A stretch of DNA of 64,000 bases from Shigella phage vB_SdyM_006. The stretch lies in the sequence record MK295204, one strand, 5' to 3'. Shown here in pieces: positions 2,762 through 53,258 of this stretch (position 1 is the first letter of the stretch; every line of letters starts with the position of its first letter). A program made the position numbers and the translations under genes. The notes beneath the pieces are model-generated. The model was given only the letters and a program-made list of their open reading frames with translations. It did no database searches and was not told the DNA's origin.

Positions 2762-3810
2762 TATGAGTTAACCGATTCAACATGTAGGCTTAAGGCATAT
2801 TTAAATAATATTTCTTTTTCGTCTTCAGACAAGCCTTCTAATGCATTGATATATTCTCGAATGATAGTTTCTAAACTTTCAACAACAATATCATCAGAGT
2901 CATCAACTTCAGGTCCATCTGTAGCTACTTTAGAAACAACCTTTAATGAATGGACTACGGATTCTAATTTAGATTCAAATTCTGTAAATTTATCATCCAT
3001 TTTATTAACAATAACACGAACAGCGATATCTTTATAATCTTCAGGGTTAATATCTGAAGGATATTGAACACGTTGGTGCCACATTGTTTTATTTTGAACA
3101 AACTCTACACTAGAATCTTTAGGGTTAAATATCCATACACCTCTAGGGTCATCCTCATCGCCAGCAGTAATTGAATATGGAGTTCCAATATATAATACAT
3201 TACCAGCTTCAGAAATCGTATGGAAGTGGCCTGAATAGACTTTATCATATTTTTTAAGAAAGTCTGGTTCTAGTCCATGGGATTTCATTCCTTTATAAAA
3301 ATAAAATCCGTTTAATTCCCAATGTCCAATACATATTTTAGCATTAGACTTTTTAATATGGTCTAAAATCTCTTTAGTGTTTTCATCGCACATCCAAGGA
3401 ATTAAATCAATTAATGTTCCTTCTATTTCGACTGTTGTTGGTTTATCATAAATTGTTATATTATCATGTTTTGATAATAATTCCGAAACCGAGTTAGGAT
3501 GGATTTTATTTTTGAAATGTAAATCATGATTACCAATAATAACATGCAAGTTAATACCAGCTTCTTTAAGTAAATCCACATTTTCTCTACTAAATTCCAT
3601 TGTGACATGTGTAATGGCTTTACGTACATCGAACCAATCACCAAATTGAATAACTTCTGTGATTTTGTTTTGTTTACAAATTTCGATAATTTGTTTTATT
3701 GAATCTCTTTGGATATTTTGAATCCAAGGGTCGTCTTTAGCGACCCCATAATGTAAATCACCTACAAATAAAATCATCATAATATCCTTGTCAATTAAAA
3801 TTGATACCAC
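2761..3810 (-). CDS. 47: Recombination endonuclease subunit gp47 (SbcD/Mre11-like phosphoesterase)
   Basis: Calcineurin-like phosphoesterase motifs (GDLHYG, GDWFD, GNHD); true start probably internal Met (MILFVGDLHYG, near 3777). Confidence 0.9.
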   Translation of the reverse strand: MVSILIDKDIMMILFVGDLHYGVAKDDPWIQNIQRDSIKQIIEICKQNKITEVIQFGDWFDVRKAITHVTMEFSRENVDLLKEAGINLHVIIGNHDLHFKNKIHPNSVSELLSKHDNITIYDKPTTVEIEGTLIDLIPWMCDENTKEILDHIKKSNAKICIGHWELNGFYFYKGMKSHGLEPDFLKKYDKVYSGHFHTISEAGNVLYIGTPYSITAGDEDDPRGVWIFNPKDSSVEFVQNKTMWHQRVQYPSDINPEDYKDIAVRVIVNKMDDKFTEFESKLESVVHSLKVVSKVATDGPEVDDSDDIVVESLETIIREYINALEGLSEDEKEILFKYALSLHVESVNS

Positions 3811-23897: not shown

Positions 23898-23949
23898 ATA
23901 TCCTCCATTAATTTAAGAATATACTAACACGTATTTTTATTAAAGTAAA

Positions 23950-24318
23950 CTAAATTGTATCAGTAAATGTTCTGTTAATTACATCTTCTTTCTGTTCATC
24001 AGTTAAAGAATTAAATCTAACAGCGTATCCAGAAACTCGGATAGTTAACTGTGGGTATTTTTCTGGATTTTCTCTTGCGTCTAATAACATTTCTTTGTTC
24101 AATACATTAACATTTAGATGCTGGCCACCTTCGATTCGTGGAGCAAATTCTAAAGCTAAATCTTTTTGAGTAGAATTACCAAATGAAGTCATTGGAACAA
24201 CTTCATCTTCTTTAAAATATTTTGATGCTAAAATTCTACAATTATTTGTTTCTGTATCTACTAAAAAGATTGTTCCATAAAAAGGACCAGAAACAAGTTG
24301 TCTTGCTTGAATTGACAT
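23950..24318 (-). CDS. Autonomous glycyl radical cofactor (GrcA/YfiD-like)
   Basis: 122 aa; [11 protein letters not shown] ... [31 protein letters not shown] closely matches E. coli GrcA including the RVSGY glycyl-radical motif. Confidence 0.85.
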
Positions 24319-24484
24319 TATTTTACCTCGTACATGTATGGATTAGTATCGTTAATATCTTTAACAAATCCATAGAATTTTTTATTGACATATAATGCAA
24401 TAGCATTTTTATGTTGGACCCATGCTAAATTATATAACTTATCAGAATTACCAAACGCACCTTTAGCTTCATTTAAAATCATAA

Positions 24485-24973
24485 TCAACACCCAATAAAA
24501 TATATAATAGGATAATAGCCAGTAAAAGCTATTGTACTTGTTAAAGCATCAATAAAATCAAAAGTGTTAAGTCCCATAGGTTCTTCAATAATAAAAATTG
24601 GAGAATTTAAACAACGGCCTCTAAAACGATTATGCCAACTTGGATTGGATAATGCTCTTCTGGAAGCTTTAATAAACTCTACACTTTTAATAGGTTTAAT
24701 GCCTGTCTTTTCAACATGGCCATTATATTTTAGTTTTGTGTCTAAAGCAGTATGCCCGATAATAAAAATATCTCTATGTGGATTTCTTAGTTTTTGTTCT
24801 AAAGCAAATTCTGATATTTGAGTAGATTTGTAAGTTTGACGTCCAAAATCAAGTTTGCATTGACGATATTCATAAACTACACTAAATATTGAACGTGTTA
24901 CCGTCCTCATTTTATTAGTATCATTTGCTTCACATTTATCTAAAAATTGTGTCATTAAATCATAGTAGTTCAT
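24485..24973 (-). CDS. Hypothetical protein
   Basis: 162-aa ORF; no recognised motif. Confidence 0.5.
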   Translation of the reverse strand: MNYYDLMTQFLDKCEANDTNKMRTVTRSIFSVVYEYRQCKLDFGRQTYKSTQISEFALEQKLRNPHRDIFIIGHTALDTKLKYNGHVEKTGIKPIKSVEFIKASRRALSNPSWHNRFRGRCLNSPIFIIEEPMGLNTFDFIDALTSTIAFTGYYPIIYFIGC

Positions 24974-25164
24974 TTGTTTCTCCTAATGGCCTTACTAGAT
25001 GAAATAGTAAGGCGTAGTGATAATTTAAGTTAAAATAGCCTTTTCTAATATTTCTGCTTTGGTCCAAGTAATGCCAAAACATTCCATTGGCGTTTTATCG
25101 TTAGTAAATAAATTGTTTACTAGTTGTTTGCACTCAATTTCTATGAGTTTTAAATCGGTTTCTG

Positions 25165-25347
25165 TCATAGATTTACTTCTTTAATTACAATTTTTTCGCT
25201 ATACCCAGGATAATCACATTTAATATAACTATCTTGGGATAATTTACTTTCAAACATCCAATCTTCTAATTGTTGTTCACCAGAACATGACATAAAGGCC
25301 ATAAACGATTCGGCTAAATGGTCATCAATCTCTATAGTAATTTGCAT
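25165..25347 (-). CDS. Hypothetical acidic small protein
   Basis: 60-aa ORF coupled to the M15 peptidase gene. Confidence 0.35.
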   Translation of the reverse strand: MQITIEIDDHLAESFMAFMSCSGEQQLEDWMFESKLSQDSYIKCDYPGYSEKIVIKEVNL

Positions 25348-25348
25348 A

Positions 25349-25720
25349 TTATCTCTTTAATTGGAAATGAGGACCATCTTTAAATGTTTTCCAATCACCA
25401 CCCCATTCTATAGCAATACCAAGTTCATTTGCTGCTTGTTTCATTGCTTTGGCAACGAGTTCAAATTTAGACCAATCTTGCCATGGGATAGCTTTATTAA
25501 CTAATGGTCCTAAGTCTACGGCTTCACCTGTCAAATGATAAGAATTCATAGTTTTAGAAACGCCTTTTCGGACATTTTCTTTTTGCTGTTCTACCGAACG
25601 TAGGCCTTCAATAACCATAAAATCTATCTCGGTTATTTGAATTGCTCGCTCTACAACTTTAACAAGCTCAGGTTTAACGCCTTTTAATCTATCTTTTGAT
25701 CTTTGTGATAATACGTACAT
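25349..25720 (-). CDS. M15-family L-alanyl-D-glutamate peptidase (T5-type endolysin)
   Basis: 123 aa; VKPEL.KV..RA...DF.V.EG.R ... SxHLTGEAVD ... WGGDW ... DGPHFQL aligns with the T5 endolysin / M15 zinc-peptidase signature. Confidence 0.75.
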   Translation of the reverse strand: MYVLSQRSKDRLKGVKPELVKVVERAIQITEIDFMVIEGLRSVEQQKENVRKGVSKTMNSYHLTGEAVDLGPLVNKAIPWQDWSKFELVAKAMKQAANELGIAIEWGGDWKTFKDGPHFQLKR

Positions 25721-33127: not shown

Positions 33128-33204
33128 TGGTACACCTACGGGAATTCGAATCCCGGTTACACGCTCGAAAGGCGTGGGTCCTAGACCACTAGACGATAGG
33201 TGCA
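33128..33204 (-). tRNA. tRNA-Glu (anticodon UUC)
   Basis: Manual fold: acceptor GCACCUA/UAGGUGU, anticodon stem CACGC with loop CUUUCGA, T-loop UUCGAAU, encoded CCA. Confidence 0.7.
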
Positions 33205-33210
33205 TTAAAA

Positions 33211-33302
33211 TGGAGGAGAGTATGGGATTCGAACCCATGGAACAGCGTAACTGTCCAACGGTTTTCAAGACCGTCTCAATAATCCATCTCTGACAACTCT
33301 CC
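33211..33302 (-). tRNA. tRNA-Ser (anticodon UGA), class II
   Basis: Perfect acceptor GGAGAGU/ACUCUCC, anticodon loop CUUGAAA, long variable arm, T-loop UUCGAAU, CCA. Confidence 0.8.
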
Positions 33303-33309
33303 AATATAA

Positions 33310-33627
33310 TTAAAACAGTAGACTATAAACAGTACCTTTACAATCTATAGGTTGTGTTTTTGAATATTCTTTAAATAGATTTAAATAACCAATTTCTTCA
33401 GGTTCCCATTGTCCTTCTAAACCATAACATGAACAATGTGAGCCGTTAACTTCCCAAAATATATCATTACTATCTTTGAAGATTACAGTAGCATACCCAG
33501 AATAATCTTCATAATCGTAATATGCTAAAATGATTTCTTTGTCATTAAGTGAATCCATAGGGATTTGGAATTCATGACAGATGTCTTCTTTTGAAGTAAA
33601 CAGTTCCATAAACACATTAGTTTTCAT
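33310..33627 (-). CDS. Hypothetical protein between tRNA genes
   Basis: ORF track gives 33310-33720, but the N-terminal part overlaps tRNA-Asp; trimmed to internal Met (about 105 aa). Confidence 0.4.
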   Translation of the reverse strand: MKTNVFMELFTSKEDICHEFQIPMDSLNDKEIILAYYDYEDYSGYATVIFKDSNDIFWEVNGSHCSCYGLEGQWEPEEIGYLNLFKEYSKTQPIDCKGTVYSLLF

Positions 33628-33650
33628 ATCAATATCCTCAAAATTAATTT

Positions 33651-33726
33651 TGGCGGTCTTACCGAGAATCGAACTCGGTGCTGTTCCGTGACAGGGAACT
33701 ATGTTAACCAGGTACACCATAAGACC
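33651..33726 (-). tRNA. tRNA-Asp (anticodon GUC)
   Basis: Acceptor GGUCUUA/UAAGACC, anticodon stem GUUCC with loop CUGUCAC, T-loop UUCGAUU, CCA. Confidence 0.8.
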
Positions 33727-33756
33727 TTAAAAATGTACCCATCCGGCTTTCCAGTC

Positions 33757-33857
33757 TGGTGAAGGGTTGTCACCTCTAGTTTAAACCTGCTAGTCAAGTA
33801 ATAATTGCATATCGTCCAATTATCAAAACCGTCTAGGTTATATTACACCACTTCCTA
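33757..33857 (-). ncRNA. Possible small stable RNA in the tRNA cluster (not foldable as a canonical tRNA)
   Basis: About 100 nt between tRNA-Asp and tRNA-Gly, begins with tgg (CCA-like 3' end on minus) and contains local hairpins; T4 carries small stable RNAs in the equivalent position. Confidence 0.2.
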
Positions 33858-33919
33858 GAATACCGTCTAAGCGGACTTGATCGACGTAGATTACACCATA
33901 TACGTCTGATTGTGGAATT

Positions 33920-33993
33920 TGGAGCGATCTACGGGTATCGAACCCGTATCTTCTGGGTGGAAACCAGAAATAATAGCCATTATACTAAGATCG
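33920..33993 (-). tRNA. tRNA-Gly (anticodon UCC)
   Basis: Perfect acceptor GCGAUCU/AGAUCGC, anticodon stem UCUGG with loop UUUCCAC, T-loop UUCGAUA, CCA. Confidence 0.8.
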
Positions 33994-34615
33994 CATATTT
34001 ATTAATAAATCTTCTTGCTTGGGTATGACTTAATCCTATATGTTTAGCAAATTTATTTAAGTTACCTCTTATTGAAATATCAAATGATTTTAATATTTCT
34101 AATCTATAATTAATTTCGTCTTTTGACAATGTAGAGGCATTATTAATAGAAATTTTGTTTTTAGATATATCCGAATGTCTCTTATTTTTAAAACCAAACG
34201 AATTTTTCTTTTTGCTAAAATCATATAATCCGAGTCTAAGTCTTTTCTTAAATGTATTAACTTGTTTACTTATAGTTAATTTAGATTTTGGCAATGAATT
34301 TATATAATCCCAACCACCTTCACCACCAACTTTTAAATTATATGTATTTTTGCTTTTAACAAATTTTTCTGTAACTATTTTGGCTTCATGTATAAACATG
34401 TCATACTTATTTTTATGAAATTTTAAAATAGTTTTTTCAAAATTTTCTTTGCCATATTTTTCTATGGCTTTTTTCAAAATCTTACCTGAACCAAAATATC
34501 CATCTTCTAAATCTTTGGTTTTATGAACACCTATATAAATTTTATTATTTATTTTATTTTTAATTTTGTATGTATAATAAAACATTATAGCCTTATTTAT
34601 CTTTTGGTACTCCAT
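33980..34615 (-). CDS. GIY-YIG homing endonuclease (seg-like) inside the tRNA cluster
   Basis: 211 aa; N-terminal YTYKIKNKINNKIYIGVHKT ... GYFGSG is a GIY-YIG motif; lysine-rich C-terminal DNA-binding region. Confidence 0.75.
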   Translation of the reverse strand: MEYQKINKAIMFYYTYKIKNKINNKIYIGVHKTKDLEDGYFGSGKILKKAIEKYGKENFEKTILKFHKNKYDMFIHEAKIVTEKFVKSKNTYNLKVGGEGGWDYINSLPKSKLTISKQVNTFKKRLRLGLYDFSKKKNSFGFKNKRHSDISKNKISINNASTLSKDEINYRLEILKSFDISIRGNLNKFAKHIGLSHTQARRFINKYAILV

Positions 34616-34779
34616 TCTTTATTAGTTGCTTTATTAACAGCAGTAGAATAAGAATTTTTAATATCTTCTGTAACAGAATAGCCAGTTAACATAGTAGAAA
34701 TTAAAATAACATATCCAAGCATTAATAAAATACAAGATAAAAATCCTGCAATAATAAGAATTGTACCTAAAGTAGTCAT
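34597..34779 (-). CDS. Small membrane protein (trimmed from the 34597-34890 ORF, which overlaps a tRNA)
   Basis: Internal Met yields about 60 aa with one long hydrophobic helix. Confidence 0.35.
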   Translation of the reverse strand: MTTLGTILIIAGFLSCILLMLGYVILISTMLTGYSVTEDIKNSYSTAVNKATNKEWSTKR

Positions 34780-34798
34780 ATTGTTCTCACAAATTATT

Positions 34799-34875
34799 TG
34801 GTGACCCACCATGGAATCGAACCATGCTCCAACGCTTATGAGGCGTTCGCTTTCAACCAGTAAGCTAGAGGGCCT
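34799..34875 (-). tRNA. tRNA with anticodon CAU (Met or Ile2-type)
   Basis: Anticodon stem AACGC/GCGUU with loop CUCAUAA, T-arm CAUGG-UUCGAUU-CCAUG, CCA; acceptor has one mismatch. Confidence 0.65.
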
Positions 34876-34882
34876 TGCAATT

Positions 34883-34966
34883 GGTGGCACCGGGTAGACT
34901 CGAACTACCGAAGGCCGAAGCCTGGAGATTTACAGTCTCCTGTCATTGCCGCTAGACTACGATGCC
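34883..34966 (-). tRNA. tRNA-Tyr (anticodon GUA), class II
   Basis: Anticodon stem GGAGA/UCUCC with loop CUGUAAA, long variable arm, acceptor GGCAUCG/CGGUGCC, CCA. Confidence 0.7.
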
Positions 34967-35011
34967 TTTTCTTATCAATAACGACTAAAAATAATCGTTA
35001 TTAATCAGAAT

Positions 35012-35088
35012 TGGTACACACTACTGGATTCGAACCAGTGACCTACGGTTTAGAAGACCGTTGCTCTATCCATCTGAGCTAAGCATGC
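35012..35088 (-). tRNA. tRNA-Arg (anticodon UCU)
   Basis: Anticodon stem ACGGU/ACCGU with loop CUUCUAA, T-loop UUCGAAU, CCA; acceptor stem has three G-U pairs. Confidence 0.6.
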
Positions 35089-35089
35089 A

Positions 35090-35380
35090 TTATAAGTACT
35101 GTTTAATCAGTTCTTCGTTATTTTTAAAAAGAATAAAAATATTATCACGAACTTCAGTATCTGAGATATGCCATTTCATAGCATCAATTAAAATGTCTTT
35201 TGGGATCATATTATATAAATTATTTAGTAAAGCAATATTATTTATATCAATATCAACTTCAAATAATTCAAAAATACAACACGAAATAGAATCATAAAAA
35301 TCTTTAATGTCTATTTCATACTTAGACAAATTATTTATAAATTCTGTTTTAGCTTGTTCTGGATTATGTGCTTTAAACAT
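35090..35380 (-). CDS. Hypothetical protein
   Basis: 96-aa ORF between tRNA-Arg and tRNA-Trp. Confidence 0.45.
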   Translation of the reverse strand: MFKAHNPEQAKTEFINNLSKYEIDIKDFYDSISCCIFELFEVDIDINNIALLNNLYNMIPKDILIDAMKWHISDTEVRDNIFILFKNNEELIKQYL

Positions 35381-35402
35381 TTTTATTCCTATTATTCTAA
35401 AA

Positions 35403-35477
35403 TGGCAGGCTCTGTAGGAATCGAACCCACGTCTTCGGATTTGGAATCCGGTATTCTACCGACTGAACTAAGAACCT
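35403..35477 (-). tRNA. tRNA-Trp (anticodon CCA)
   Basis: Anticodon loop UUCCAAA, D-arm UAGUUCAGUCGGUAGAAU, T-loop UUCGAUU, CCA. Confidence 0.7.
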
Positions 35478-35478
35478 T

Positions 35479-35562
35479 TGGCGGGCAGTGTAGGATTCGA
35501 ACCTACGTCGTCAAATGACACGGATTAACAGTCCGCTGCTTAATCCACTCAGCCAACTACCC
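35479..35562 (-). tRNA. tRNA-Asn-like (anticodon GUU) with an unusually long variable arm
   Basis: Anticodon arm CGGACUGUUAAUCCG is nearly identical to E. coli tRNA-Asn, but the variable region is about 13 nt (GUCAUUUGACGAC), giving 84 nt. Confidence 0.55.
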
Positions 35563-37342: not shown

Positions 37343-37774
37343 TTAACTAATCTGCTTCAAAGGTTGAGTGATAATAGGTTTATCAACAAAATACACTTTC
37401 ATTTCATCGAAAACACGAATAAAATCATAATCATATTGTACAGGCTCACCAAGAATAGTTTGTAAAGCTTTTAATAAATTACTACTTGGAAAATATTTGT
37501 CTACAAATTCTTGAGAAATTTTTGATTCTGAAAGTAATTTATCTAAATTTGTTCTAATACCATCTTCAATGTCATAAAAATCTTCATTACAAAGATCTTC
37601 GCCACCATGATAACTTGGCTTAAAGATCATAAGAACATTTGAGAACATAGTCACTTCTTCTAGAGTGAGGCCATCAAAATACTGGGTAGAAAAATCATCT
37701 GCGTCATTTTCCCAAGTAGTAACAGAAATTAAATATCCTGATTTAACATTTAAGCCATTAATTAATTCTTTCAT
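37343..37774 (-). CDS. Hypothetical acidic protein
   Basis: 143-aa ORF. Confidence 0.5.
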   Translation of the reverse strand: MKELINGLNVKSGYLISVTTWENDADDFSTQYFDGLTLEEVTMFSNVLMIFKPSYHGGEDLCNEDFYDIEDGIRTNLDKLLSESKISQEFVDKYFPSSNLLKALQTILGEPVQYDYDFIRVFDEMKVYFVDKPIITQPLKQIS

Positions 37775-37846
37775 TTTATATACCGTGTTGTTTAAAAGAA
37801 TTTAATCATATACAAGAATATTTTTATGCGATTAAAAACCAAAAAA

Positions 37847-37865
37847 GAGACCGAAGTCTCTTTTT
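37847..37865 (-). terminator. Hairpin GAGAC-CGAA-GUCUC flanked by A/T runs (terminator-like in both orientations)
   Basis: Read directly; between the 37883-38161 and 37343-37774 ORFs. Confidence 0.4.
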
Positions 37866-37882
37866 AATTAGTTAGTATGGTT

Positions 37883-38161
37883 TTATAAAGTGCTCTTTAA
37901 AGCCTTTTCTATATCTTTTGAATTAAGATTAACTTCTGTTTTGGCCACTATAGCTTTAGAAATATTAAATTTCTTAAATTTTGAAGAATTTAAAATAGTT
38001 TTTAAATCTTTAGCTTCTATGACATCTACAACGTCATTTTCGTTTTTACTTCCAATAATTACAGCACGATAGCCTTCAATTTCATCATATTTAGAAAATC
38101 TATATTGGAATTCTACACTAAAATCTTTAGATTCATTCAAAAATTCATCAAATGTTTTCAT
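37883..38161 (-). CDS. Internal-protein-like (capsid-targeted) protein
   Basis: 92 aa; N-terminus MKTFDEFLNE matches the T4 internal-protein capsid-targeting sequence MKTYQEFIAE. Confidence 0.55.
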   Translation of the reverse strand: MKTFDEFLNESKDFSVEFQYRFSKYDEIEGYRAVIIGSKNENDVVDVIEAKDLKTILNSSKFKKFNISKAIVAKTEVNLNSKDIEKALKSTL

Positions 38162-38222
38162 TTTTAATCTCTGGTGTTTAAATTTATAAGTATTATATCA
38201 CAATTTTTATGATTGTAAACTG

Positions 38223-38495
38223 TTATTTTAAATATTGGACCATTTTATCTACCATATCATCATCTCTGACATTAAACAAATAATCTACTTCTTTGCTATT
38301 TTTCAGTATTTGCCATTCACCTGCACGATGTCGAACAAAAGTATATGCTCCTGATTTGAATGAATCACTACTAATTTTTTTGACATGTTTTATCTTAAGG
38401 CCTTCAACCTCGGCCCATGCCACAATTTGTTGGGCTGGGGTTAATCCATAATTTTTACGCTTAACTTCTGTTATGAATTCATTAAATGTTTTCAT
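38223..38495 (-). CDS. Internal-protein-like (capsid-targeted) protein, IPI position next to 57B
   Basis: 90 aa; N-terminus MKTFNEFITE matches the capsid-targeting sequence; same position as T4 ipI. Confidence 0.6.
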   Translation of the reverse strand: MKTFNEFITEVKRKNYGLTPAQQIVAWAEVEGLKIKHVKKISSDSFKSGAYTFVRHRAGEWQILKNSKEVDYLFNVRDDDMVDKMVQYLK

Positions 38496-38555
38496 TTTTC
38501 AATTATTCCTCTTTAGTGGTTTAAACATACTATCGTCTTAAATTACGTATGTAAA

Positions 38556-39232
<677 letters not shown>

Positions 39233-39252
<20 letters not shown>

Positions 39253-39892
39253 GTTTTACCTTTTTTTGAAAAATTTCTAAAGAATCATTATTTTCAATAA
39301 CAATATCACCTTCTAAAATAGGGAGGTCTTGTTCAGTGATATGGTCATCATTTGTAATTGTATTTTTTTTAATATGGATAATTTTACCTTTATTGTTTCG
39401 AACAGTATCAATTTCATGTACTTGTCGACAATCAGTAATAATAACAACATGACTTCTAGGGATTAATTTATCAATGTAATTGAAAACCATATCTACCCAG
39501 TACATTTTATCCATGCTTACAACAATATCAGTTCCAAGGGTCTGTAGGAACTTTCGAATTGTAAATTCATTATTATTTATAATAGGGATTTCTGGTATAT
39601 CACCTTTAAGACCATGACTTTTTAAATATCGAATACAGCGAATCATATAATCTTCGAATTGTTCTTGTGTCATATTTAATTTATATTCGCGATCAATGCC
39701 ATGTCCGTCAAAGTCATCATAGGTCAATTCAAACCCATTATAGTTTTGCCAATTTATAGACAAAGTGAATTTTAGATAATCGGCAAAAGCCATAGTGTGT
39801 GAAGTAATATTATTTTCTTCACAAATATCTTCAATAAATTTAGCACATGTATCTTTTCCGGAACGTTTTTTACCGGTCAAACCAATAATCAT
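39233..39892 (-). CDS. 1: Deoxynucleoside monophosphate kinase gp1
   Basis: 219 aa; P-loop GLTGKKRSGKDT and overall resemblance to T4 gp1. Confidence 0.85.
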
Positions 39893-39894
39893 AA

Positions 39895-40473
39895 TTACCT
39901 CATAGAAGGATGTAAGTTTCTACCTATTGAAATAGCGGAGTCTTGAATAGACGGACGAGATACTATAATTTTATTATTTTTCTCTATTTCGAAATATTTA
40001 AAGTTAAATACAACAGTCATATAAACCGCTGGGTCACCTTCGTTATCATAACCATATTCTATATCAGATATAGAAGAAGGCCAAGCGCCATAATAGTTAA
40101 ATGATATTAAGGATTCTTTTTTATCATTATCTAATATATGTAATATCAGTCCTTCAGGTTGTCCAGATGGGTCCCAGGCGGTATTATTATGGGTGATATA
40201 GTTATTAATTGATAACATCCATTTGTATATCTCTACGTAAGAGAGGAGTTCCTCGTCTAATAAAACTTTAGCTACTAATTCTCCATGTTCAAGTGTAGAA
40301 CCTGGTAAATTAGATCTACCAAGTCCTTTTGTTCCTAAAGGAACTTCAGTAATAGGTATTCTAACATCAGGAAGTGTAAAGCTTTGGACATTTAATGTAA
40401 ACGCTTCAGTTAATTTACTATCTGGTATATCAATTCTAAAATTTGTAGAATTTGTTTGATTAAAAAAACTCAT
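39895..40473 (-). CDS. 3: Tail completion / tube terminator protein gp3
   Basis: 192 aa; assigned by synteny (1-3-2-4). Confidence 0.65.
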   Translation of the reverse strand: MSFFNQTNSTNFRIDIPDSKLTEAFTLNVQSFTLPDVRIPITEVPLGTKGLGRSNLPGSTLEHGELVAKVLLDEELLSYVEIYKWMLSINNYITHNNTAWDPSGQPEGLILHILDNDKKESLISFNYYGAWPSSISDIEYGYDNEGDPAVYMTVVFNFKYFEIEKNNKIIVSRPSIQDSAISIGRNLHPSMR

Positions 40474-52348: not shown

Positions 52349-52352
52349 ATTA

Positions 52353-52374
52353 GGAGACTTCGGTCTCCTTTTTT
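52353..52374 (+). terminator. Rho-independent terminator: GGAGAC-UUCG-GUCUCC plus U6
   Basis: Read directly, immediately after the gp8 stop and before the gene 9 late promoter. Confidence 0.6.
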
Positions 52375-52375
52375 G

Positions 52376-52383
52376 TATAAATA
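52376..52383 (+). promoter_or_regulatory. Late promoter TATAAATA for gene 9
   Basis: Exact TATAAATA about 24 nt upstream of the gene 9 ATG. Confidence 0.6.
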
Positions 52384-52406: not shown

Positions 52407-53258
52407 ATGCAAGAATTCAAAACACTTATTGACACCGGTATTAAAGGAAATTCTTCAACTGGGGATATTTTATACGACGGTGGCGAAAAACTAAATATCA
52501 ATATGAACAATATCTATAATACTTTTGGTGATTATAGATTATTTGATGAAACACTTCAAGGCCAAGGAAAACAGAAACTTCATGCCACTGGGTATTACCA
52601 AAAACATACAAGAATGTATTATTTAGATACTCCTGAAGGCATAGAAATGGGTTCACTTCATGATGTTGATACAAGTTCAGGTAAATTAGATATTAAACTT
52701 CCAGCTGCTAAATTGGGCGAAGGAATTGTCATTATCAATAGTAATGGGTCTTTAAGTAAAGACACCCCTGTAATATTATCTGCTTTTGGTTCTGATACTA
52801 TTTTAGGTCATGGTGCAAGATTATCACTTGAAATGCCTAAAACAAAAACTACACTATGGTGCACACGTCAAGACCAAGGTATTGGTGTATGGGAATACAG
52901 AATAGAATCTATGTTTGGCAATCATCAACTTGCTGTAGATTCTGACTTATTACTAGATACATCCGAAAAAACCATAGAACTTGGAAACGTTGACCACTAC
53001 AATACAATAAAACTACTTCTACATGGTGTATCTCAAAACCAAAAGTCGTTTAAAAGCTCAGAAATGTTGATATCTATTTTACATTCTTCAGGCGAAGTTT
53101 ATAAAACAGAATACGCAGTTTTAAAAAATAATGGAGATTTGTTTTCAATAGATTTTGTTATAGATTCTGGAATTTTAAAGGCTAAAGTAAAATCATTATC
53201 AGGAAACGTAGCTTTTTCTATTAAATCTATTGGAACTATTAAGGTAGGAGCCGTATGA
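52407..53258 (+). CDS. 9: Baseplate protein gp9 (long tail fibre socket)
   Basis: 283 aa (T4 gp9 is 288 aa); synteny. Confidence 0.8.
   Translation: MQEFKTLIDTGIKGNSSTGDILYDGGEKLNINMNNIYNTFGDYRLFDETLQGQGKQKLHATGYYQKHTRMYYLDTPEGIEMGSLHDVDTSSGKLDIKLPAAKLGEGIVIINSNGSLSKDTPVILSAFGSDTILGHGARLSLEMPKTKTTLWCTRQDQGIGVWEYRIESMFGNHQLAVDSDLLLDTSEKTIELGNVDHYNTIKLLLHGVSQNQKSFKSSEMLISILHSSGEVYKTEYAVLKNNGDLFSIDFVIDSGILKAKVKSLSGNVAFSIKSIGTIKVGAV

What the first reader, a model, noticed from the sequence alone, without database searches (positions are those of the whole stretch)
37883..38495. Two internal-protein genes carrying capsid-targeting sequences
Both ORFs start with MKTF(D/N)EF(L/I)(N/T)E, a close match to the T4 internal-protein capsid-targeting sequence that directs packaging and is cleaved by the prohead protease. 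The bodies of both proteins are unlike T4 IPI as I recall it. T4 IPI is injected with the DNA and inhibits a modification-dependent restriction system, and the IP locus is known to be hypervariable, so these are likely injected anti-defence effectors of unknown specificity.
Basis: partly seen in the sequence, partly recalled or inferred. Interest (0 to 1): 0.55.

Follow-up and report, generated by a model that had tools for sequence, protein, structure and literature searches.

The report
Two T4-type internal (injected) protein genes
Two small neighbouring genes of a T4-like phage carry the short leader peptide that T4 uses to load proteins into its head for injection with the DNA; this is a known kind of gene cassette, but what these two proteins do after injection is unknown.

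Summary
Two minus-strand ORFs start with a T4-type capsid-targeting sequence (CTS): IP-A at 38223-38495 (90 aa, MKTFNEFITE) and IP-B at 37883-38161 (92 aa, MKTFDEFLNE). They are the only two matches in the 64 kb window, against 7e-5 expected by chance.

They lie at the T4 ipI locus, in the order gp3, gp1, 57A, 57B/Acb1, IP-A, IP-B, terminator. Each has its own T4-type early promoter.

The window is a Bragavirus. Both proteins are 100% identical to Shigella phage vB_SdyM_006 gp129 and gp128.

The mature bodies resemble neither each other nor T4 IPI or IPII. IP-A belongs to PHROG 8765, already labelled "internal virion protein" and found in phages of 10 host genera, usually at the other IP locus (e-denV). 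IP-B belongs to the unannotated PHROG 31819, found at the same locus in some Klebsiella, Enterobacter and Kosakonia phages.

Among related phages the cassettes are present, absent or swapped. The junctions fall at the promoter -35 (AGTTTACA) and just after the CTS, as in the published cassette-shuffling model.

Packaging, cleavage after Glu10 and injection are strongly inferred. An anti-defence role rests only on analogy with T4 Ip1-3, which inhibit GmrSD enzymes.

Verdict: a new member of a known kind, of modest interest.

The parts
38223..38495 (-). IP-A gene (90 aa). Codons 1-10 (38466-38495) encode the capsid-targeting sequence MKTFNEFITE. The predicted mature protein is 80 aa, 9.35 kDa, pI 9.6.
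   Evidence: PHROG 8765 'internal virion protein', E 4.6e-39. 100% identical to vB_SdyM_006 gp129. AF2 model pLDDT 83.9, alpha-beta5-alpha.
37883..38161 (-). IP-B gene (92 aa). Codons 1-10 (38132-38161) encode the capsid-targeting sequence MKTFDEFLNE. The predicted mature protein is 82 aa, 9.35 kDa, pI 8.8.
   Evidence: PHROG 31819 (unknown function), E 1.6e-46. 100% identical to vB_SdyM_006 gp128. AF2 model pLDDT 81.1. Full-length homologues at 44-45% identity sit at the same locus in Klebsiella phage Marfa and Enterobacter phage Q7622.
38527..38557 (-). T4-type early promoter of the IP-A cassette: AGTTTACA, 17 nt spacer, TAGTAT. It starts directly at the end of 57B.
   Evidence: It aligns with the promoter upstream of T4 ipI. 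No stable stem-loop here (z -0.05).
38192..38221 (-). T4-type early promoter of the IP-B cassette: AGTTTACA, 16 nt spacer with TG, then TATAAT (11 of 12 to consensus). A near-late-promoter motif TATAAATT follows it.
   Evidence: AGTTTACA-N15-18-TANNAT occurs only at these two places in the 64 kb window. Cassette junctions in relatives fall on this -35.
37842..37865 (-). Intrinsic terminator closing the IP unit: AAAAAGAGAC-TTCG-GTCTCTTTTT followed by a T-run.
   Evidence: Folding energy -15.3 kcal/mol, z -4.75, 0 of 200 shuffles as stable. In phage SJ_PmiM the same hairpin sits directly upstream of the IP-B promoter.
38556..39017 (-). Upstream neighbour, the 57B homologue (Acb1 anti-CBASS phosphodiesterase family). 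It is the conserved anchor of the locus.
   Evidence: Pfam PF23474 Acb1, E 1.2e-52. Same gene order as T4 57B-ipI.
39574..39581 (-). TATAAATA late-promoter motif inside gene 1. It is a candidate source of late read-through transcripts covering 57A, 57B, IP-A and IP-B. This is an inference.
   Evidence: No terminator-like site was found on the minus strand between 39300 and the one at 37865-37842 (which scanned 37700-39300 only).

Best explanation
These are two independent internal-protein (IP) cassettes at the ipI locus of a T4-like Bragavirus.

Each cassette consists of a T4-type early promoter, a ribosome-binding site, a 10-residue capsid-targeting sequence and an unrelated body of about 80 residues.

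Inferred mechanism:
1. The precursor binds the gp22/gp67/gp68 scaffolding core of the assembling prohead through its leader. The aromatic residue at position 4 and Phe at 7 are the targeting determinants.
2. The gp21-type prohead protease cuts after Glu10 (I-T-E|V in IP-A, L-N-E|S in IP-B).
3. The basic mature proteins of about 9.35 kDa stay in the head, probably in tens to hundreds of copies.
4. They are injected with the DNA, and so are present in the cell before any phage gene is expressed.
5. There they most likely neutralise a host defence that attacks incoming DNA. By analogy with T4 Ip1-3, the target would be a nuclease aimed at modified DNA, such as a GmrSD-type type IV enzyme.

The cassettes are gained, lost and swapped by recombination at the conserved -35 element and within or just after the leader-coding sequence.

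Shown here: the motif, locus, promoters, terminator, polymorphism and lack of similarity of the bodies. Inferred: packaging, cleavage, injection and the target.
For: Motif and chance level.

Functional positions of the CTS: PMC9026906.

Synteny with T4 (3, 1, 57A, 57B, ipI).

Promoter and leader align with T4 ipI.

Mature size and pI fall within the range of T4 IPI*, IPII* and IPIII*.

The closest sequenced relative, phiP4-3, encodes gp21 protease, gp22, gp67 and gp68. Its gp23 and gp24 keep the T4 cleavage contexts FLTE|AEVGG and LLRE|S.

The leader is conserved as a peptide across homologues only 35-45% identical in the body, for both families.

Locus polymorphism in relatives:
- phiP4-3 has IP-A and IP-B.
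- Proteus PM2 has IP-A with a nonsense codon plus a 173-aa CTS protein.
- Pm5461 has the 173-aa protein only.
- SJ_PmiM has IP-B only.
- PSTCR6 has an IP-A-like, an IPII-like and an IP-B-like cassette.

T4 Ip1, Ip2 and Ip3 each inhibit a distinct GmrSD: PMC12373910.

Early-promoter/stem-loop cassettes at IP loci and more than 30 IP variants are published: PMC2839356, PMC4122927.

The lineage is predicted to make hmC-derived modified DNA (PMC8056088), and vB_SdyM_006 DNA resisted EcoRI.
Against: No direct evidence of virion presence, processing or injection exists for either family. One Jiaodavirus virion dataset held as text showed only IPII-type peptides.

The protease and scaffold genes lie outside the window, so they were checked only in a relative.

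The two promoters are of the early type. Late expression, which packaging needs, is inferred from T4 and from upstream late motifs.

In the published work, ip4-ip10 of T-even phages showed no reproducible activity against 15 GmrSD groups, so not every IP need be a GmrSD inhibitor.

IP-A's family is conserved across many genera at 35-42% identity. That fits a general role at least as well as a strain-specific arms-race role.
Confidence: 0.6

Rival explanations
1. The proteins are packaged, processed internal proteins, but their main role is physical or morphogenetic. They would neutralise DNA charge or assist core and head assembly, as reported for T4 IPIII, and have no specific host-defence target.
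For: Both mature proteins are basic, pI 9.6 and 8.8. T4 IPIII mutants assemble heads more slowly and give smaller bursts (PMC9026906). The IP-A family is conserved across phages of 10 host genera, mostly in a fixed position overlapping the end of the lysozyme gene. These appear to be the only two CTS genes across both canonical IP loci of this phage.
Against: All three T4 IPs, including IPIII, now have a specific GmrSD target. IP-A is inactivated by a nonsense codon in Proteus phage PM2 and absent from Pm5461 and SJ_PmiM. IP-B is absent from PM2 and Pm5461. Neither is therefore needed for head assembly in this genus.
Confidence: 0.2
2. The leader is only a recombination scar shared by cassettes. 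The proteins would be ordinary early cytoplasmic proteins that are not loaded into the head.
For: Both genes have early-type promoters and no perfect late promoter directly upstream. The leader-coding DNA is a 39-nt direct repeat (79% identity) that clearly serves as a recombination site.
Against: The leader is conserved as a peptide, at exactly the residues needed for targeting and cleavage, across homologues with diverged DNA and bodies. T4 ipI has the same early-promoter arrangement and its product is packaged. In T4, ten residues of this leader suffice to load foreign proteins (PMC9026906).
Confidence: 0.07
3. One or both ORFs are not expressed genes.
For: They are short ORFs in AT-rich DNA (31% G+C). 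The IP-B family is annotated only as hypothetical.
Against: Both ORFs are conserved with intact frames in several phages. Both give confident AF2 folds from very shallow alignments. Both have promoters, and a terminator frames the pair.
Confidence: 0.02

Closest known systems
T4 internal protein I (ipI, Ip1/IPI*; PHROG 4363), inhibitor of GmrSD of E. coli CT596
   Same: Same locus, immediately downstream of 57B. Same early-promoter plus leader architecture. N-terminus MKTF-EF. Product of similar size and charge (76 aa, pI 9.0). A dispensable, polymorphic gene.
T4 internal proteins II and III (PHROGs 7857 and 5341), inhibitors of GmrSD of ECOR21 and ECOR17
   Same: A 10-residue leader MKTYQEFIAE|A that is 6-7 of 10 identical to these two, with the same cleavage geometry. 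Basic mature proteins.
   Different: They lie at the other IP locus (e-denV), which in this window holds no CTS gene. The bodies are unrelated.
PHROG 8765 'internal virion protein' (for example phiP4-3 gp132, Dhakavirus UP19 CAI9865922, PEi20 gp127, CHI14 gp125)
   Same: IP-A is a member: E 4.6e-39, 35-99% identity, aligned over its full length.
   Different: In most genera the gene overlaps the 3' end of the lysozyme gene at the e-denV locus. In Bragavirus and PSTCR6 it is a promoter-equipped cassette at the ipI locus. Some members carry a different 17-residue propeptide or a fused second domain.
PeSL (promoter-early stem-loop) mobile regulatory cassettes of T4-like phages, and the PeSL-like elements at IP loci (Arbiol 2010; Comeau 2014; Repoila 1994)
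   Same: The consensus TTTACW-N17-TAYWAT is present before each cassette. Junctions of cassette gain and loss lie at the -35. A terminator hairpin is fused to the promoter in SJ_PmiM.
   Different: In this window the two promoter-associated stem-loops are not more stable than shuffled sequence (z about 0). Those of T4 ipI and of the PM2 173-aa cassette are stable (z -3.4 and -3.6).

Membership tests
T4-type CTS-bearing internal proteins | N-terminal capsid-targeting sequence with an aromatic residue at position 4 and Phe at position 7 | tested here: met
   MKTFNEFITE and MKTFDEFLNE have F4 and F7. The determinants are taken from PMC9026906.
T4-type CTS-bearing internal proteins | gp21 cleavage motif (L/I)-x-E at positions 8-10, with Glu and not Asp at position 10 | tested here: met
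   I-T-E and L-N-E at positions 8-10. There is no other (L/I)xE site in either protein.
T4-type CTS-bearing internal proteins | Location in one of the two IP loci (downstream of 57B, or between e and denV) | tested here: met
   The gene order gp3, gp1, 57A, 57B, IP-A, IP-B matches T4.
T4-type CTS-bearing internal proteins | Small, basic mature product | tested here: met
   80 aa with pI 9.56 and 82 aa with pI 8.83, against T4 IPI* 9.02, IPII* 9.56 and IPIII* 9.65.
T4-type CTS-bearing internal proteins | Cognate gp21-type prohead protease and gp22/67/68 core in the same genome | tested here: inconclusive
   The window ends in the terminase gene, so these genes are not in it. The 92.8%-identical relative phiP4-3 encodes all of them, with conserved gp23 and gp24 cleavage sites.
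T4-type CTS-bearing internal proteins | Present in the virion in processed form and injected with the DNA | not testable with these tools
   No proteomic data were found for either family.
T4 IPI / IPII sequence families (PHROGs 4363, 7857; IPIII = 5341 by PHROG assignment only) | Sequence similarity of the mature body | tested here: not met
   hhalign probability below 1% against IPI* and IPII*. The PHROG assignments are 8765 and 31819, not 4363, 7857 or 5341. IPIII was not compared by hhalign. No PDB sequence match.
PHROG 8765 internal virion protein (IP-A only) | Full-length profile match | tested here: met
   E 4.6e-39, residues 1-90 matched to profile positions 1-91 of 92. 41 phage records hold a homologue.
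GmrSD (type IV restriction) inhibitors | Demonstrated inhibition of, or binding to, a GmrSD enzyme | not testable with these tools
   This rests only on analogy with T4 Ip1-3.
PeSL-type mobile cassette | Early promoter joined to a stable stem-loop, flanking a variable ORF | tested here: inconclusive
   Promoters are present and the junctions lie at the -35. The stem-loops upstream of both genes are not stable. A strong hairpin lies only at the 3' end of the pair.

The most novel reading that the evidence does not exclude
IP-A and/or IP-B are injected inhibitors of a defence system not so far linked to internal proteins. That would be something other than GmrSD, for instance a Morganellaceae- or Shigella-specific nuclease aimed at the arabinosyl- or other hmC-derived DNA that this lineage is predicted to make, or a non-nuclease system. 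With Acb1 next door, the 57B-IP segment would then be a compact early-acting anti-defence island. IP-B's family (PHROG 31819) would become a newly recognised internal-protein family.
Probability: 0.2. Interest if true: 0.6.

Novelty: new member of a known kind. Interest (0 to 1): 0.3.

Why it matters
Internal proteins reach the cell together with the phage DNA, so they can disarm defences that act before any phage gene is expressed. Since 2025 all three T4 internal proteins have been known to be specific inhibitors of distinct GmrSD type IV restriction enzymes, while the many other IP variants have no known target.

These two proteins add two sequence-unrelated, confidently folded candidates from a Proteus/Providencia/Shigella phage lineage. 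One of them (IP-B) is not annotated as an internal protein anywhere I looked. They are reasonable entries for an anti-defence screen, and their 10-residue leader could be used to load cargo into this phage group.

Nothing here changes the current picture of how such cassettes work or evolve.

Tried and rejected
1. Sequence searches for function found nothing informative.
- Pfam and NCBIfam gave no match to either protein.
- PDB by sequence gave nothing significant.

2. Deepening the alignments largely failed.
- The search for homologous proteins gave only 4 clusters for IP-A and 3 for IP-B, all from phages.
- I spent the last search on an alignment of artificial IP-A+IP-B concatenations, hoping to hit both families at once. 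It returned only two natural two-domain proteins. This wasted the search but revealed the fused variants.
- IMG/VR scans with both family alignments returned almost only phiP4-3 and Marfa-like contigs.
- The exhaustive representative search with the IP-B profile found only its own cluster.

3. Fold searches were uninformative.
- The BFVD library gave only the Klebsiella F48 homologue.
- I rejected reading function from any of these.

4. Proteomic support was sought in a Jiaodavirus virion dataset. Only IPII-type peptides were retrievable, and the file was truncated when stored.

5. I first took the IP-A copy in Proteus phage PM2 to be intact but unannotated. Translation showed a TGG to TGA change at codon 27.

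6. I considered that the promoter regions were canonical PeSLs. Folding showed no stable stem-loop upstream of either gene in this window.

Full report
**What is there**

The window carries two adjacent minus-strand ORFs.
- IP-A lies at 38223-38495 and encodes 90 aa starting MKTFNEFITE.
- IP-B lies at 37883-38161 and encodes 92 aa starting MKTFDEFLNE.

I took the T4 sequences from the T4 record itself.
- IPII and IPIII begin MKTYQEFIAE|A.
- IPI begins MKTFKEFTSTTTPVSTITE|A.

The two window leaders match the IPII/III leader at 7 and 6 of 10 positions and share MKTF-EF with IPI. A review of the experimental work (PMC9026906) states three things:
- The first ten residues of IPIII suffice for incorporation into the head.
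- Residues 4 and 7 carry the targeting, and residues 8 and 10 the processing.
- Asp at position 10 blocks cleavage.

Both window proteins have Phe4, Phe7, Ile/Leu8 and Glu10.

A regular expression for the motif hits only these two ORFs in all six frames of the 64 kb. The expectation from composition is 7e-5, and none of 300 shuffles gave a match.

**Where it is**

The window is part of a T4-like phage of the genus Bragavirus.
- The DNA of the region is 92.8% identical to Proteus phage phiP4-3.
- Both proteins are 100% identical to gp129 and gp128 of Shigella phage vB_SdyM_006, a phage described in PMC7925395.

Family searches on the flanking genes gave the following.

| Coordinates | Assignment |
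|---|---|
| 39895-40473 | gp3 tail-tube terminator |
| 39233-39892 | gp1 dNMP kinase |
| 38992-39252 | gp57A |
| 38556-39017 | gp57B, which matches Pfam Acb1 (anti-CBASS) at E 1.2e-52 |

This is exactly the T4 order 3, 1, 57A, 57B, ipI, so the two genes occupy the ipI locus.

The window also contains the second classical IP locus, between the endolysin gene and denV (about 23900-25350). It holds no CTS-bearing ORF here. The head protease and scaffold genes lie just beyond the window's end.

In phiP4-3, the gp21 protease, gp22, gp67 and gp68 are all present. Its gp23 and gp24 keep the T4 cleavage contexts FLTE|AEVGG and LLRE|S.

**Cassette anatomy**

Each gene has its own T4-type early promoter.
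- IP-A: AGTTTACA, 17 nt spacer, TAGTAT, at 38527-38557.
- IP-B: AGTTTACA, 16 nt spacer with TG, TATAAT, at 38192-38221.

The pattern AGTTTACA-N15-18-TANNAT occurs nowhere else in the window.

Promoter, ribosome-binding site and leader align with the region upstream of T4 ipI. The leader-coding DNA forms a 39-nt direct repeat of 79% identity, 334 nt apart.

A strong intrinsic terminator closes the pair at 37842-37865 (-15.3 kcal/mol, z -4.75).

A TATAAATA late-promoter motif lies within gene 1 at 39574-39581 on the same strand. The scan of 37700-39300 found no minus-strand terminator-like site between 39300 and the one at 37865-37842. Late read-through is therefore possible, but it is inferred.

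**Polymorphism**

The locus differs among relatives.

| Phage | Cassettes downstream of 57B |
|---|---|
| phiP4-3 | IP-A, IP-B |
| Proteus PM2 | IP-A with a TGG to TGA nonsense change at codon 27, then an unrelated 173-aa protein whose first 12 residues equal those of IP-B |
| Pm5461 | the 173-aa protein only |
| SJ_PmiM | IP-B only |
| Providencia PSTCR6 | IP-A-like, a 124-aa protein of the IPII family (PHROG 7857), IP-B-like |

Alignments of the junctions show that similarity switches exactly at AGTTTACA and again just after the leader.

This matches the published model. Early-promoter/stem-loop cassettes (PeSLs) mediate modular shuffling, PeSL-like elements were seen at the two IP loci by Repoila et al. 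in 1994, and more than 30 IP variants are known (PMC2839356, PMC4122927).

One difference was found. The stem-loops associated with the two promoters in this window are no more stable than shuffled sequence, whereas those of T4 ipI and of the PM2 173-aa cassette are.

**The proteins**

The predicted mature forms are 80 aa (9.35 kDa, pI 9.6) and 82 aa (9.35 kDa, pI 8.8). This is the range of T4 IPI*, IPII* and IPIII*.

The bodies show no similarity to each other, to IPI* or to IPII* (hhalign probability below 1%).

IP-A:
- It belongs to PHROG 8765, already labelled "internal virion protein". RefSeq annotates the phiP4-3 orthologue that way.
- tblastn finds homologues of 35-42% identity in 41 phage records from 10 host genera.
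- Those inspected lie between the lysozyme gene and denV, often overlapping the lysozyme gene's 3' end.
- So IP-A is a broadly conserved internal protein that in Bragavirus sits at the other IP locus as a promoter-equipped cassette.

IP-B:
- It belongs to the unannotated PHROG 31819.
- Full-length homologues of 44-45% identity, all with a CTS, sit directly downstream of 57B in Marfa-like Klebsiella phages and in Kanagawavirus.
- An exhaustive profile search of 1.8 billion representatives found nothing beyond its own cluster.

Structure predictions:
- AlphaFold models from very shallow alignments were confident.
- IP-A had pLDDT 83.9 with an alpha-beta5-alpha fold. IP-B had pLDDT 81.1 with a beta3-alpha-beta2-alpha fold.
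- I draw no functional conclusion from them.

**How it most likely works**

The sequence and synteny evidence make it very likely, about 0.85 in my estimate, that both proteins follow the T4 route:
1. They are loaded into the prohead core by their leader.
2. They are cut after Glu10 by the gp21-type protease.
3. They are kept in the head and injected with the DNA.

What they do next is not shown. The best-supported guess is inhibition of a host defence that acts on incoming DNA, for four reasons.
- T4 Ip1, Ip2 and Ip3 each specifically block a different GmrSD type IV enzyme (PMC12373910).
- The genes are dispensable and polymorphic within the genus.
- They sit next to another anti-defence gene, Acb1.
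- This lineage is predicted to make hmC-derived modified DNA (PMC8056088), and the phage's DNA resisted EcoRI.

Three points weigh against too confident a reading.
- ip4-10 of T-even phages had no reproducible target among 15 GmrSD groups.
- IP-A's wide conservation would also fit a general role.
- No virion proteomics exists for either family.

**Verdict**

The functional claim is a reasonable analogy and nothing more.

This is a new member of a well-known kind. One gene is already annotated as such in RefSeq. The other could be re-annotated as a putative internal protein. Interest is modest (0.3).

Noticed in passing
window 38556-39017 (-): The 57B homologue matches Pfam Acb1 (anti-CBASS phosphodiesterase) at E 1.2e-52. 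PHROGs and the RefSeq records of related phages call it 'RNA ligase'. With the two IP genes it forms a run of likely counter-defence genes.
   Followed up: partly
L002 3098-3370 (Proteus phage PM2, NC_055727.1 about 52608-52880): An unannotated copy of IP-A, 97.8% identical, with a single TGG to TGA change at codon 27. It is either a fresh pseudogene or a sequencing error.
   Followed up: yes
P0008 (Pectobacterium phage PM2 gp132, 167 aa) and P0009 (159 aa, metagenomic): An IP-A-family domain is fused to an unrelated second domain through a vestigial leader that keeps the cleavage motif (KKMNESFLNE|ASD and KEDSLNE|AKE). This looks like two IP cassettes merged into one precursor, which the prohead protease could cut into two proteins.
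   Followed up: partly
L019 1480-1767 and L020 1480-1767 (phages EcS1 and CHI14): IP-A homologues here start with a different 17-residue N-terminus, MTLLESYL(E/Q)TYTQPLTE|SEMDD, which still ends in L-T-E. This may be an alternative propeptide.
   Followed up: no
window 23900-25720: The second classical IP locus (endolysin to denV) holds no CTS-bearing ORF in this phage. The endolysin (25349-25720) matches PHROG 465 (annotated only as 'endolysin'), and PHROGs gave no lysozyme label.
   Followed up: partly
L004 about 3267-3346 (phage SJ_PmiM); window 37842-37865 (-) and 52352-52369 (+): In SJ_PmiM the hairpin AAAGAGAC-TTTG-GTCTCTTT lies directly upstream of the IP-B promoter -35, forming a terminator-plus-promoter unit like a PeSL. 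Nearly the same hairpin ends the IP pair in the window. A third similar one sits at 52352-52369, just before a TATAAATA motif at 52376.
   Followed up: partly
L005 2649-3023 (Providencia phage PSTCR6): The middle cassette (124 aa) belongs to the T4 IPII family (PHROG 7857, E 2.3e-7). Its leader reads MKTFEEFLNK, with Lys instead of Glu at position 10. The next possible cleavage motif is I-T-E at residues 13-15.
   Followed up: no
L021-L111 (IMG/VR contigs found with the leader DNA pattern): One narrow DNA pattern for MKTFxEFxxE found 97 ORFs of 30-363 aa. After removing the leader they fall into 43 clusters, including the 6 reference sequences I added. Cargo includes a HEAT/LRV-repeat protein (L033) and, below Pfam thresholds, a zeta-toxin-like P-loop protein (L049) and a HAD-like protein (L077). 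I did not check whether these contigs are all T4-like.
   Followed up: partly
window 33128-35562 (-): A cluster of nine tRNA genes (Glu, Ser, Asp, Gly, Met, Tyr, Arg, Trp, Asn) lies downstream of the IP locus, as in T4.
   Followed up: no
window 37883-38495: The two predicted mature proteins have almost the same mass (9,347 and 9,351 Da). They would co-migrate on gels and need high-resolution MS to be told apart.
   Followed up: no
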